A program made the translations under genes and the position numbers. This document shows positions 1-1,983 of a DNA stretch of 1,983 nt, one piece after another. The notes beneath the pieces were generated by a model. It was not told where the DNA came from, ran no database searches, and saw only the letters and a list, made by a program, of their open reading frames with translations. Source of the DNA: Escherichia coli. Its GTDB lineage: Bacteria > Pseudomonadota > Gammaproteobacteria > Enterobacterales > Enterobacteriaceae. The stretch lies in assembly GCF_003334765.1 (NCBI RefSeq), contig NZ_QOWT01000075.1; one strand, written 5' to 3'. Numbering within the stretch: position 1 is the first letter of the stretch; every line of letters starts with the position of its first letter.

Positions 1-225
1 GCTCTGTATCACTGTATTGTCTTCCGGCAACTGATGAGGGCTGGCAGAAGTCGCCGGTGTTTCGGTAGCGTCACGTTCATTCACCACGCGGAGTGAATAA
101 CCGTTTTCAGCGACTTTGTTAATCAGTTCAGCGAGCTCAATACCATCGACGTCAACGACAATGCGCCCCATGTTCAGCGCCTGCGCATTAATGCTGTCGG
201 CTTCCAGCGTCAGGGCCAGTTTCAT
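1..225 (-). CDS. yeeW: YeeW-like protein, 5' portion only (75 codons; continues beyond window start)
   Basis: Manual minus-strand translation from ATG at 225..223 gives MKLALTLEADSINAQALNMGRIVVDVDGIELAELINKVAENGYSLRVVNERDATETPATSASPHQLPEDNTVIQS with no stop up to position 1. N-terminus matches my recollection of E. coli YeeW. The ATG overlaps the toxin stop as ATGA (222..225). Possible SD GGGGG about 9 nt upstream. Not in the ORF track, presumably because it is truncated by the window edge. Confidence 0.7.
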   Translation of the reverse strand, partial: MKLALTLEADSINAQALNMGRIVVDVDGIELAELINKVAENGYSLRVVNERDATETPATSASPHQLPEDNTVIQS

Positions 226-599
226 TGTTTCGCCCCCGGATGTTTACCCAGGGTAATGTTATTTACCGTTCTGTAGTTGTCGCGTGTCATCAGGCCGGTT
301 GCCCGGCGTGCCCGGAGAATATCAATGCTGTTGATTAACTGCGACGGGGCTCCTGCGCTGAATCCCGGCTGGTCGGTACGTACCAGCGCGTATTTTTCAA
401 CGAGAAAGTTCACCGCGTCACACAGTGAAATCCCTGCCTCAATATGCTGCTCAATCACACGTTCATCAGCGAACGGTGTGTCATTCAGCGTGAGGCCATA
501 GTGCTGGTCCAGCAGTCGGGTGAGCAGTGTCTGCCAGATGGTGATGGGAGACGGGCAGCCCGATGCCTCCCGTACGTGAGTGTCGGGTAATGTATTCAT
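222..599 (-). CDS. cbtA: Type IV toxin, CbtA/YeeV/YkfI/YpjF family (inhibitor of FtsZ and MreB polymerisation)
   Basis: ORF-track protein from the internal Met: MNTLPDTHVREASGCPSPITIWQTLLTRLLDQHYGLTLNDTPFADERVIEQHIEAGISLCDAVNFLVEKYALVRTDQPGFSAGAPSQLINSIDILRARRATGLMTRDNYRTVNNITLGKHPGAKQ (125 aa), close to recalled E. coli CbtA/YkfI over most of its length. Start chosen at ATG 599..597, which sits after the antitoxin stop with a weak SD (AGAGAA); the track's 160-aa version begins at a GTG at 704 inside the antitoxin gene. Stop TGA at 222..224. Confidence 0.88.
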   Translation of the reverse strand: MNTLPDTHVREASGCPSPITIWQTLLTRLLDQHYGLTLNDTPFADERVIEQHIEAGISLCDAVNFLVEKYALVRTDQPGFSAGAPSQLINSIDILRARRATGLMTRDNYRTVNNITLGKHPGAKQ

Positions 600-645: not shown

Positions 646-1023
646 TTATACGGTGGTTGCGGGCGCTGCCGGTGTCGGATAAACAGCCAGATAAACGTAA
701 CCACAGGAGCCGAGGGTGTCGGCTTCGCAGGTCAGCCCTTTCGCATACAGTGTCACGGTATGCTGATGGCGGGGATTCAGTTCACCACTGGTGAGCATGA
801 GCTCCAGTTGTTTCATCAGCAGCGGAAAGGCCTGGTCCAGGTGGTATGCATCTGCATCGCTGAACCGGCCTCTGATACCGGCGCGGTCGGCAAGGTAATG
901 CAACCGGTTACCCTTCTGCACCAGACGTGCCCCGAAACAGGGCGTCACGGTGCAGGGCAGTCCCCACCAGAGGCGGTCGTGATTGTCGTCGGGAGGCGTT
1001 GTCCCGGGGAGTGTGTCTGACAC
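646..1023 (-). CDS. cbeA: Type IV antitoxin, CbeA/YeeU/YfjZ/YafW family
   Basis: 125-aa translation MSDTLPGTTPPDDNHDRLWWGLPCTVTPCFGARLVQKGNRLHYLADRAGIRGRFSDADAYHLDQAFPLLMKQLELMLTSGELNPRHQHTVTLYAKGLTCEADTLGSCGYVYLAVYPTPAAPATTV matches recalled YeeU/CbeA closely. Start codon is GTG (plus 1021..1023 is cac), preceded by GAGGA at 1031..1035. Stop TAA at 646..648. Lies directly upstream of the toxin, as expected for this pair. Confidence 0.88.
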   Translation of the reverse strand: MSDTLPGTTPPDDNHDRLWWGLPCTVTPCFGARLVQKGNRLHYLADRAGIRGRFSDADAYHLDQAFPLLMKQLELMLTSGELNPRHQHTVTLYAKGLTCEADTLGSCGYVYLAVYPTPAAPATTV

Positions 1024-1102: not shown

Positions 1103-1324
1103 TCAGTTCAGGGTGACGCTCATCAGCCGGACATACGGACCAAAACTGTCCTTACGGCGTTCTGCAAACACAGCCAGTACACCGGGAATATCCTGCACTT
1201 CACGGCCGGTATATGTATCCGTGCTACCGTGCCAGCGGTATTTACCGGTACAGAACGGAAAAAGACGGGATGCAGGATGCTGACGGTGAATACGCATGGC
1301 TTCACCACGGGTGATGATTTTCAT
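1103..1324 (-). CDS. yeeT: DUF987-family small protein (YeeT/YpjJ/YkfH-like), function unknown
   Basis: 73-aa translation MKIITRGEAMRIHRQHPASRLFPFCTGKYRWHGSTDTYTGREVQDIPGVLAVFAERRKDSFGPYVRLMSVTLN matches recalled E. coli YeeT. ATG at 1324..1322 with a canonical AGGAGG SD at 1334..1339 (9-nt spacer). Stop TGA at 1103..1105. Conserved position between the RadC-like gene and the antitoxin. Confidence 0.85.
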   Translation of the reverse strand: MKIITRGEAMRIHRQHPASRLFPFCTGKYRWHGSTDTYTGREVQDIPGVLAVFAERRKDSFGPYVRLMSVTLN

Positions 1325-1410: not shown

Positions 1411-1887
1411 TTAAAGCAGACCGTGTTCCGCAAAGGAGAAAACCTGGCTGCCACCGACTATCAGATGGTCCGGTACCCGGATATCAACCAGGGCCAGTGC
1501 CTGTACCAGACGCTCAGTGATAAGGCGGTCTGCCTTGCTGGGGGGGACTTCACCGGACGGGTGATTGTGCGCCAGCACCACGGCAGCGGCATTGTGGTAC
1601 AGGGCGCGTTTAATCACTTCCCGGGGATGGACTTCCGTACGGTTGATGGTGCCGGTGAAGAGGGTTTCACCGGCAATCAGCTGATTCTGGTTGTTCAGAT
1701 ACAGCACCCGGAACTCTTCACGCTCCAGTCCCGCCATGTTCAGAATCAGCCATTCCCGTGCCGCATGCGTGGAGGTGAAGGCCACGCCGGGTTCATGAAG
1801 ATGGCGGTCCAGGGTTTTCAGGGCCCGCTGAATGAGGCTGCGCTCGCCGGGTGTCATCTCTCCGGGCAGAAAGGAAAGTTGTTGCAT
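1411..1887 (-). CDS. yeeS: RadC-like JAB/JAMM-domain protein (YeeS/YfjY/YkfG family; historically mislabelled DNA repair protein RadC)
   Basis: Translation MQQLSFLPGEMTPGERSLIQRALKTLDRHLHEPGVAFTSTHAAREWLILNMAGLEREEFRVLYLNNQNQLIAGETLFTGTINRTEVHPREVIKRALYHNAAAVVLAHNHPSGEVPPSKADRLITERLVQALALVDIRVPDHLIVGGSQVFSFAEHGLL (158 aa) contains the JAMM signature H-x-H-x7-S-x2-D (HNHPSGEVPPSKAD, encoded at 1528..1569). Start set at ATG 1887..1885, which has GGAGAG 9 nt upstream; the track's longer ORF starts at ATG 1902..1900, which has no SD and abuts the upstream stop. Stop TAA at 1411..1413. Confidence 0.88.
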   Translation of the reverse strand: MQQLSFLPGEMTPGERSLIQRALKTLDRHLHEPGVAFTSTHAAREWLILNMAGLEREEFRVLYLNNQNQLIAGETLFTGTINRTEVHPREVIKRALYHNAAAVVLAHNHPSGEVPPSKADRLITERLVQALALVDIRVPDHLIVGGSQVFSFAEHGLL

Positions 1888-1894
1888 TGTGCTT

Positions 1895-1900
1895 CTCTCC
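1895..1900 (-). promoter_or_regulatory. Shine-Dalgarno GGAGAG for the RadC-like gene, lying within the first-ATG codons
   Basis: Minus strand reads TGA ATG GAG AGA AGC ACA ATG; GGAGAG sits 9 nt upstream of the ATG at 1887. Confidence 0.55.
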
Positions 1901-1902
1901 AT

Positions 1903-1983
1903 TCAATCGATGATGCGCATAATGGCGCTGCATTCCGGATGCTGCAGGGCGTAATCCCGCAGCCGGTAATAATGGACCGTCAT
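1903..1983 (-). CDS. 3' end of upstream gene (26 codons plus stop); possibly a KlcA/ArdB-family antirestriction protein (YfjX/YafX-like) by synteny
   Basis: Minus-strand frame reads ...MTVHYYRLRDYALQHPECSAIMRIID then TGA at 1905..1903, with no internal stop back to the window edge. In CP4-57 and CP4-6 type cassettes the gene immediately upstream of the RadC-like gene is an antirestriction protein, but in CP4-44 it is yeeR, so the product is uncertain. Confidence is for a real coding 3' end, not for the product. Confidence 0.5.
   Translation of the reverse strand: MTVHYYRLRDYALQHPECSAIMRIID

What the first reader, a model, noticed from the sequence alone, without database searches (positions are those of the whole stretch)
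1903..1983. Upstream gene is probably an antirestriction gene, giving the cassette an anti-defence context
If the truncated gene ending at 1903 is KlcA/ArdB-like, as in CP4-57 and CP4-6 type cassettes, then the window begins inside an anti-restriction/establishment block. The 27 visible codons are too few for me to assign the family without a search.
Basis: inference. Interest (0 to 1): 0.4.

Follow-up and report, generated by a model that had tools for sequence, protein, structure and literature searches.

The report
Known ArdB anti-restriction gene tail

Summary
The observation and the interpretation both hold. On the minus strand, window 1983..1906 reads MTVHYYRLRDYALQHPECSAIMRIID, followed by TGA at 1905..1903. 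These 26 residues alone match the C-terminus of PDB 2WJ9, the E. coli CFT073 ArdB, 26/26 at E = 2.4e-13.

The window is 100% identical to many complete E. coli genomes, including 042, 55989 and O104:H4. In those genomes the ORF continues to 157 aa. That protein:
- matches Pfam PF03230 "Antirestrict" over the whole model (1e-36);
- is 95.5% identical to ArdB-CFT;
- is 66-70% identical to the K-12 paralogues YfjX (CP4-57) and YafX (CP4-6);
- is acidic (pI 4.7).

Published work showed that ArdB-CFT, YfjX and YafX all relieve type IA-ID restriction in vivo.

The proposed refuter, a YeeR-like upstream gene, is a deletion variant specific to K-12 CP4-44. The window contains sequence that this deletion removes.

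ArdB lies 15 nt upstream of radC and probably heads the operon. The "anti-defence/establishment" context is reasonable: the module also carries DUF905, DUF932 and a methyltransferase-like DUF4942, and plasmid leading regions contain ArdB and DUF905 homologues. That part remains inference.

Verdict: already known, low interest.

The parts
1903..1983 (-). Last 26 codons plus TGA stop of a 157-aa ArdB/KlcA-family anti-restriction gene. The full gene would span window 1903..2376 and is cut by the window edge. The fragment holds the invariant positions R140, H146, E148, A151, I152 and the terminal D157.
   Evidence: Translation. 26/26 identical to the 2WJ9 C-terminus, E 2.4e-13. Full-length Pfam PF03230 match at 1e-36. 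Alignment A1.
1888..1902 (-). 15-nt ardB-radC spacer, ATGGAGAGAAGCACA on the minus strand, carrying a GGAGAG Shine-Dalgarno-like motif 9 nt upstream of the radC ATG at 1887. No terminator-like site lies here, so the two genes are probably co-transcribed.
   Evidence: Sequence. Terminator scan. RefSeq radC start.
1411..1887 (-). RadC-like JAB-domain protein, 158 aa, the YeeS/YkfG/YfjY(LfgB) paralogue group.
   Evidence: RefSeq annotation in exact-match genomes. PHROG 10276 at 1.2e-35.
1103..1324 (-). DUF987 protein, 73 aa, YeeT/YkfH/YpjJ-like.
   Evidence: PHROG 14887 at 1.5e-36.
646..1023 (-). CbeA/YeeU-family type IV antitoxin, 125 aa, GTG start.
222..599 (-). CbtA-family toxin, 125 aa.
1..225 (-). 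N-terminal fragment of a DUF5983 (YeeW-like) gene. Its ATG overlaps the cbtA stop (ATGA at 222-225). It continues in frame into the DUF957 gene just outside the window, giving a 140-aa fused ORF.
   Evidence: translation. PGAP annotates it as a pseudogene plus DUF957.

Best explanation
Window 1903-1983 (minus strand) is the 3' end of an intact ardB gene of the ArdB/KlcA family (Pfam PF03230). The gene belongs to the widespread CP4-type island module of E. coli, seen here as the allele carried by strains 042, 55989 and O104:H4. ArdB is the first gene of a probable ~2.6-kb transcription unit: ardB, radC-like JAB, DUF987, cbeA, cbtA, then a DUF5983/DUF957 fusion. Most likely mechanism: when the island DNA enters a new host unmethylated, ArdB blocks the endonuclease activity of type I restriction-modification enzymes but not their methyltransferase activity. 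It does so regardless of their recognition sequence, and without acting as a DNA mimic. The incoming DNA is then methylated rather than cut, and the CbeA/CbtA module afterwards helps retain the element. Shown here: gene identity, family membership, intactness, gene order, and near-identity to a solved and assayed protein. Shown in the literature on orthologues: in vivo relief of type IA-ID restriction with little anti-modification, no dependence on ClpXP, and direct in vitro inhibition of one type I enzyme by R64 ArdB. Inferred: activity of this exact allele, co-transcription with radC, and expression during island transfer.
For: The 26-aa tail is 26/26 identical to the 2WJ9 C-terminus, E 2.4e-13. 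The window is 100% identical to E. coli 042 and 55989, where the ORF is annotated 'antirestriction protein' at window-equivalent 1903-2376. All 25 exact-match records listed reappear covering 100% of the window plus the rest of ardB, at 99.4% identity or better. The full protein matches Pfam PF03230 at 1e-36 over model 1-92/92, PHROG 10132 at 4.5e-63, PDB 2WJ9 at 7.5e-107 and KlcA 2KMG at 2.3e-22. It differs from 2WJ9 residues 25-181 at 7 of 157 positions (95.5% identity). That 2WJ9 core has a computed mass of 17,832 and a length of 157, matching ArdB-CFT in Table 1 of PMC2836571. The protein has pI 4.74. ArdB-CFT gave anti-restriction factors of 710, 54, 199 and 1174 against type IA, IB, IC and ID systems, with anti-modification of 6 or less (PMC2836571 Table 2). 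ArdB acts independently of the recognition site and does not affect BREX or type III systems (PMC10149784). R64 ArdB inhibits BlihIA in vitro, and deleting its C-terminal D141 abolishes activity (PMC12429846). The terminal Asp is invariant in my 7-sequence alignment and lies within the window. The ardB-radC gap is 15 nt with no terminator-like site. The CP4-57 paralogue set yfjXY-ypjJ-yfjZF is described as one operon (PMC10846083).
Against: Only 81 nt of the gene lie in the window, so the rest is inferred from identical genomes. This exact allele has not been assayed. NCBIfam returned no model hit, even at E of 1 or less. The simple sigma-70 scan found no consensus promoter in the 301-nt gap upstream of ardB, so expression in situ is unproven. 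The biochemical mechanism of ArdB is unresolved in the literature: EcoKI is not inhibited in vitro (PMC2836571), while BlihIA is (PMC12429846). These islands are largely cryptic and non-self-transmissible, so the occasion on which ArdB acts is inferred.
Confidence: 0.93

Rival explanations
1. The ArdB homologue is intact but has been domesticated. It would serve host stress physiology as part of an lfg-type operon (MqsA-regulated, oxidative-stress protection) rather than anti-restriction.
For: In K-12 CP4-57 the paralogous operon (lfgA = yfjX) is induced by oxidative stress and bound by MqsA, and deleting lfgA sensitises cells to H2O2 (PMC10846083).
Against: The same paper could not complement the lfgA deletion with LfgA. 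It attributed the phenotype to a polar effect on the downstream protease LfgB. YfjX itself relieved type I restriction 10- to 6160-fold in vivo (PMC2836571 Table 2). The two roles are not mutually exclusive.
Confidence: 0.05
2. The gene is a silent relic. It would be an intact-looking but unexpressed or inactive ArdB copy in a decaying cryptic island, with no current function.
For: The module shows decay elsewhere: a DUF5983 pseudogene/fusion, an integrase remnant and IS1 fragments. No consensus promoter was found upstream.
Against: The ORF is full length in every exact-match genome inspected. Substitutions relative to the paralogues are mostly synonymous. It is 95.5% identical to an orthologue that is active in vivo. 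The invariant residues, including the terminal Asp, are kept.
Confidence: 0.05
3. The upstream gene is a YeeR-like membrane protein, as in K-12 CP4-44, and not an anti-restriction gene.
For: K-12 CP4-44 does have yeeR directly upstream of, and overlapping, yeeS.
Against: The YeeR tail ...KIREGKVEER* is unrelated to the window tail. Homology between CP4-44 and this island breaks at window position 1863. The stretch 1864-1983 lies inside the ~3.57-kb segment deleted in CP4-44. In strain 042 the yeeR-like gene sits 2.5 kb further upstream.
Confidence: 0.005

Closest known systems
ArdB-CFT (ORF14 of PAI II, E. coli CFT073; NP_752219; crystal structure PDB 2WJ9)
   Same: 157 aa with 150 of 157 residues identical. 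The last 65 residues (93-157), which include everything visible in the window, are identical. Same pI. Same island type.
   Different: Seven substitutions: V12A, S13C, D18G, S25T, L26I, G90D and N92T. Five lie in the N-terminal region upstream of the Pfam domain, which starts at residue 62. Two lie in the acidic loop. The 55989 allele also carries V53I. This allele has not been assayed itself.
YfjX/LfgA (CP4-57) and YafX (CP4-6) of E. coli K-12
   Same: Same family. Same position directly upstream of a RadC-like gene, DUF987 and a CbeA/CbtA-type TA pair. The tails match at 24/26 and 20/26 residues. Both proteins relieve type I restriction in vivo (PMC2836571).
   Different: 70% and 66% protein identity, 152 aa, with divergent N-termini. 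The TA paralogues differ (YfjZ/YpjF and YafW/YkfI).
Plasmid ArdB/KlcA/YubI (IncI, IncF and IncP leading-region proteins; KlcA NMR structure 2KMG)
   Same: Pfam PF03230. Shared invariant residues, including the terminal Asp. Located among establishment genes such as a DNA methylase, SSB, PsiB and DUF905.
   Different: Only 29-39% identical and about 141 aa. In the plasmids inspected (L007-L009) they are not adjacent to RadC or CbtA. They sit on conjugative plasmids rather than chromosomal islands.
ArdA and Ocr DNA-mimic anti-restriction proteins
   Same: Small acidic proteins of mobile elements that relieve type I restriction.
   Different: Unrelated fold and family. ArdA and Ocr mimic DNA and also block modification. 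ArdB is not a DNA mimic and leaves modification largely intact (PMC2836571, PMC10149784).

Membership tests
ArdB/KlcA (Pfam PF03230 Antirestrict) | Significant full-length match to the family profile | tested here: met
   PF03230 at i-Evalue 1e-36, query 62-157 to model 1-92/92. PHROG 10132 'anti-restriction protein' at 4.5e-63. The test used the 157-aa ORF from genomes 100% identical to the window. The 26 aa in the window are too short for the Pfam tool, but alone they hit 2WJ9 at 2.4e-13.
ArdB/KlcA (Pfam PF03230 Antirestrict) | The ArdB/KlcA fold (solved structures 2WJ9 and 2KMG) | tested here: met
   Assessed by sequence only: 95.5% identity to 2WJ9 over all 157 residues, and E 2.3e-22 to KlcA 2KMG over residues 17-157. 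At this identity no separate structure prediction was needed, and none was run.
ArdB/KlcA (Pfam PF03230 Antirestrict) | Small (about 140-160 aa) acidic protein | tested here: met
   157 aa, pI 4.74, 19 D+E against 9 K+R.
ArdB/KlcA (Pfam PF03230 Antirestrict) | Conserved C-terminal segment ending in an Asp that is required for activity in R64 ArdB | tested here: met
   R140, H146, E148, A151, I152 and D157 are invariant across 7 chromosomal and plasmid homologues (A1). The loss of activity in ArdB deltaD141 is as stated in PMC12429846. Treating D157 as equivalent to R64 D141 rests on alignment to a 141-aa IncI-type ArdB, not to R64 itself.
ArdB/KlcA (Pfam PF03230 Antirestrict) | Relieves type I restriction in vivo with little or no anti-modification | not testable with these tools
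   Shown for the 95.5%-identical ArdB-CFT and for YfjX and YafX (PMC2836571 Table 2). Not shown for this allele.
ArdB/KlcA (Pfam PF03230 Antirestrict) | Carried by a mobile element among establishment or anti-defence genes | tested here: met
   The module sits at island ends beside cadC with an integrase remnant in 042, and beside yghD in 55989. It carries DUF932, DUF905, a TA pair and a methyltransferase-like DUF4942. ArdB and DUF905 homologues also lie in an IncI plasmid region with a DNA methylase, SSB and PsiB/PsiA. Whether the neighbouring genes are themselves anti-defence genes is not established.
   The YeeR tail ...KIREGKVEER* shows no resemblance to the window tail. The CP4-44 junction is a deletion endpoint at window 1863.
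ArdA/Ocr DNA mimics | Match to the ArdA profile or a DNA-mimic fold | tested here: not met
   The Pfam scan returned only PF03230 plus an insignificant Defensin-like hit. PDB hits were only 2WJ9 and 2KMG.

The most novel reading that the evidence does not exclude
In chromosomal islands, ArdB and the RadC-like JAB protease 15 nt downstream might be a functionally coupled pair. [quoted passage not shown] It might act, for example, by processing HsdR or a regulator. My data show only tight adjacency and very frequent co-occurrence. Plasmid ArdBs lack an adjacent RadC, and R64 ArdB inhibits one type I enzyme directly in vitro (PMC12429846). Both facts argue against this reading.
Probability: 0.03. 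Interest if true: 0.6.

Novelty: already known. Interest (0 to 1): 0.08.

Why it matters
It matters little as a discovery. The gene family, its structure, its in vivo activity and this gene order (ardB, radC, DUF987, cbeA, cbtA) are all published, and RefSeq already labels the gene 'antirestriction protein'. The practical value is annotation. The window can be read with confidence as the tail of an ArdB-led operon in a CP4-type island module, and the toxin-antitoxin cassette next to it belongs to a mobile-element establishment and maintenance block. One fact worth noting is how common the module is: about 89% of complete E. coli genomes carry at least one ArdB tail of this type, and one genome carries 13. 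That is relevant to how permeable E. coli type I restriction barriers really are.

Tried and rejected
- **NCBIfam.** A scan of the full protein and of the 26-aa tail gave no family even at E of 1 or less. I treat this as a gap in that library, because Pfam, PHROGs and PDB all give strong hits.
- **Promoter and terminator scan (L001 11700-15600).** It found no consensus sigma-70 site in the 301-nt gap upstream of ardB. The overall promoter count was at the shuffle expectation: 3 found against 2.8 expected. The ardB promoter is therefore not located.
- **Frpo-like single-strand promoter.** I folded the 301-nt upstream gap as ssDNA to look for one. The z-score was -2.78, with a weak centroid and no -35/-10 pairing evident. 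This is too weak to claim, and I did not pursue it.
- **Upstream gap against plasmids.** The few matches are mostly the same island module in records filed as plasmids, several of them 0.8-4.9 Mb long; none of the rows shown is an IncF or IncI plasmid.
- **Rfam.** A scan of 14 kb around the window found nothing in the window and only IS102/IsrC upstream of agn43.
- **Literature search for 'ArdB' plus 'D141A'.** It found nothing. The deltaD141 statement comes from the discussion of PMC12429846 instead.
- **YeeR alternative.** Rejected.
- **Alternative radC start.** An ATG at 1902 abuts the ardB stop (TGAATG). I consider it less likely than the annotated ATG at 1887, which has a GGAGAG motif upstream.
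- **Searches not run.** I did not run the large protein-database, metagenome or structure-prediction searches. The identity was already settled by 95.5% identity to a solved, assayed protein.

Full report
**1. What is in the window**

All plausible genes lie on the minus strand. From the window's high end they are:

| Window coordinates | Feature |
|---|---|
| 1983..1903 | truncated ORF |
| 1887..1411 | RadC-like JAB protein |
| 1324..1103 | DUF987 protein |
| 1023..646 | CbeA/YeeU-family antitoxin |
| 599..222 | CbtA-family toxin |
| 225..1 | start of a DUF5983-like ORF |

The finding concerns the truncated ORF. The reverse complement of 1903-1983 translates to MTVHYYRLRDYALQHPECSAIMRIID*, which is 26 sense codons plus TGA.

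**2. Is it more than chance?**

An open frame of 26 codons is not informative by itself, because + frame 0 is also open over the same 81 nt. The evidence is homology.

- The 26-residue peptide alone hits the C-terminus of PDB 2WJ9 with 26/26 identities, E = 2.4e-13. It hits the C-terminus of KlcA (2KMG) at E = 0.037.
- Against the K-12 paralogues, nucleotide differences in the tail cluster at third codon positions. For yfjX, 8 of 11 differences are there, with 8 synonymous and 2 non-synonymous codon changes. For yafX, 13 of 20 are there. This is the signature of a coding sequence under purifying selection.

**3. Extending the gene**

The window is 100% identical to many complete E. coli chromosomes, including 042, 55989 and the O104:H4 outbreak lineage. 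In 042 and 55989 the ORF continues to 474 nt and 157 aa (window-equivalent 1903..2376). RefSeq calls it 'antirestriction protein'.

All 25 exact-match records listed also cover 100% of the window plus the rest of ardB, at 99.4% identity or better. Whichever of these genomes the window came from, the upstream gene is the same.

The 96-nt stretch of ArdB tail plus spacer occurs at 12,955 places in 4,832 of 5,426 complete E. coli genomes (median 2 per genome, maximum 13). All 40 rows sampled from the top to the bottom of the ranking are annotated as antirestriction protein.

**4. Family tests on the full-length protein**

- Pfam PF03230 'Antirestrict': i-Evalue 1e-36, covering model positions 1-92 of 92.
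- PHROG 10132 'anti-restriction protein': 4.5e-63.
- PDB: 2WJ9 at 7.5e-107 and KlcA 2KMG at 2.3e-22, with no other structures.
- NCBIfam: nothing.

The protein differs from 2WJ9 residues 25-181 at 7 of 157 positions, none of them in the last 65 residues.

The 2WJ9 core is 157 aa with a computed mass of 17,832. This equals the 157 aa and 17,832.1 Da listed for ArdB-CFT (NP_752219, ORF14 of PAI II of CFT073) in Table 1 of PMC2836571. I therefore equate 2WJ9 with ArdB-CFT. The PDB record itself only says 'intergenic-region protein'.

The protein is acidic, with pI 4.74. It is 70% identical to YfjX, 66% to YafX and 29-39% to the plasmid proteins ArdB, YubI and KlcA. R140, H146, E148, A151, I152 and the terminal D157 are invariant, and all lie within the visible tail.

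**5. The stated refuter**

K-12 CP4-44 has yeeR directly upstream of yeeS. The YeeR C-terminus (...KIREGKVEER*) is unrelated to the window tail.

Aligning CP4-44 to the 042 island shows homology running to L001 position 17435, inside the 838-aa yeeR-like gene, and resuming at 13863, which is window 1863. CP4-44 therefore carries a ~3.57-kb deletion. It removed the 3' part of the yeeR-like gene, IrmA, DUF905, DUF932, ardB and the first 8 codons of radC.

Window 1864-1983 lies inside that deleted segment, so the window is not of the CP4-44 type.

**6. How it works**

*Shown in the literature for close relatives.* ArdB-CFT, YafX and YfjX, expressed at low level, raise plating of unmodified lambda on type IA, IB, IC and ID hosts. 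For ArdB-CFT the factors were 710, 54, 199 and 1174, with weak or no anti-modification (PMC2836571 Table 2). The same study found:
- no dependence of KlcA136 on ClpXP (tested on KlcA136 only; the authors assume it holds for the family);
- no inhibition of EcoKI by the purified ArdB proteins in vitro;
- a fold that is novel and not a DNA mimic.

ArdB works regardless of the recognition site and does not affect type III systems or BREX (PMC10149784). R64 ArdB inhibits the type I enzyme BlihIA in vitro, which suggests a direct mechanism. A mutant lacking the C-terminal Asp (deltaD141) is inactive (PMC12429846).

*Shown here.* ardB sits 15 nt upstream of radC, with a GGAGAG motif before the radC ATG. 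No terminator-like site lies between them. The first good terminator-like hairpin on this strand that lies outside a coding sequence follows DUF957. The CP4-57 paralogue set is treated as one operon (PMC10846083).

*Inferred.* ArdB is made on entry of the island into a new host. It blocks cleavage by type I enzymes while methylation proceeds, and the TA pair then stabilises the element.

**7. The 'anti-defence context'**

The ~15-kb module is nearly identical in 042 and 55989 but sits at different chromosomal sites: beside cadC with an integrase remnant in 042, and beside yghD/gsp in 55989. This fits a mobile island.

Besides ArdB the module carries DUF932, DUF905, the RadC-like protein, the TA pair and a DUF4942 protein with a methyltransferase-like PHROG hit. 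An IncI-type conjugative plasmid carries an ArdB homologue in a region with a DNA methylase, SSB, DUF905 and PsiB/PsiA. An IncF plasmid has YubI next to a methyltransferase.

Published work describes leading-region 'anti-defence islands' that combine klcA, methyltransferases, SSBs and TA systems (PMC11541004). The context label is therefore reasonable. However, only ArdB has demonstrated anti-defence activity, and the plasmid homologues inspected are not next to RadC. A 29-kb record filed as a Klebsiella oxytoca plasmid carries the same DUF932-ArdB-RadC-DUF987-CbeA cassette at 94% protein identity.

**8. Verdict**

This is an already known, well-characterised gene in a very common E. coli module. 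Interest is low.

Remaining uncertainties are modest: this allele has not been assayed, its promoter is not located, and the biochemical mechanism of the family is unresolved. The only non-trivial speculation my data leave open is functional coupling between ArdB and the adjacent JAB protease, which I rate at about 3%.

Noticed in passing
window 1-225 (minus strand), continuing to L001 11803: The ORF starting at the ATG at 225 overlaps the cbtA stop as ATGA. It is an in-frame fusion of a DUF5983 (YeeW-like) N-terminal fragment with the DUF957 gene, giving a 140-aa ORF. PGAP annotates it as a pseudogene plus a separate GTG-started DUF957 gene. A Klebsiella plasmid copy has full-length DUF5983 (492 nt) and DUF957 as separate genes.
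   Followed up: partly
L001 13864-17434 versus L003 (K-12 CP4-44) 6300/6303: K-12 CP4-44 is a ~3.57-kb deletion derivative of this island type. It fuses a truncated yeeR-like gene to a radC (yeeS) gene lacking its first 8 codons, and it has lost IrmA, DUF905, DUF932 and ardB.
   Followed up: yes
L001 and L002, positions about 10744-25983: The same module (GTPase, Ag43, yeeR-like, IrmA, DUF905, DUF932, ArdB ... DUF4942) lies at two different chromosomal sites in two strains. In 042 it is next to cadC with an integrase remnant. In 55989 it is next to yghD/gsp. The two copies are base-for-base identical from 10744 to 14219.
   Followed up: partly
L001 14377-14677 (the 301-nt gap upstream of ardB, outside the window): The simple scan found no consensus sigma-70 promoter here. 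Folded as single-stranded DNA the gap gives z = -2.78, with several hairpins such as CAGTCTGTGCAGACTG. In CP4-57, MqsA is reported to bind about 245 bp upstream of the paralogue lfgA (PMC10846083). Whether this gap holds a regulated or single-strand promoter is open.
   Followed up: partly
window 1900-1905: An in-frame ATG immediately abuts the ardB stop (TGAATG). It would extend RadC by 5 residues (MERST-MQQ...). The annotated start at 1887 has the better Shine-Dalgarno motif.
   Followed up: no
L001 22220-22425 (minus strand): A full-length Rfam RF00124 IS102/IsrC sRNA match (255 bits) lies between the GTPase gene and agn43, as in K-12 CP4-44, where isrC precedes flu.
   Followed up: no
L001 15596-15829 and L009 7407-7640: A DUF905 protein occurs both in the chromosomal island upstream of ArdB and in an IncI-type plasmid region between ssb and a ParB-like gene near psiB. 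This is a second family shared between the island block and plasmid leading regions.
   Followed up: no
E. coli genome collection: RefSeq now names K-12 yfjX and yfjY as lfgA and lfgB ('less fatality gene'), following PMC10846083. The lfgA deletion phenotype there was attributed to polarity on lfgB, so that name says nothing about ArdB function.
   Followed up: yes
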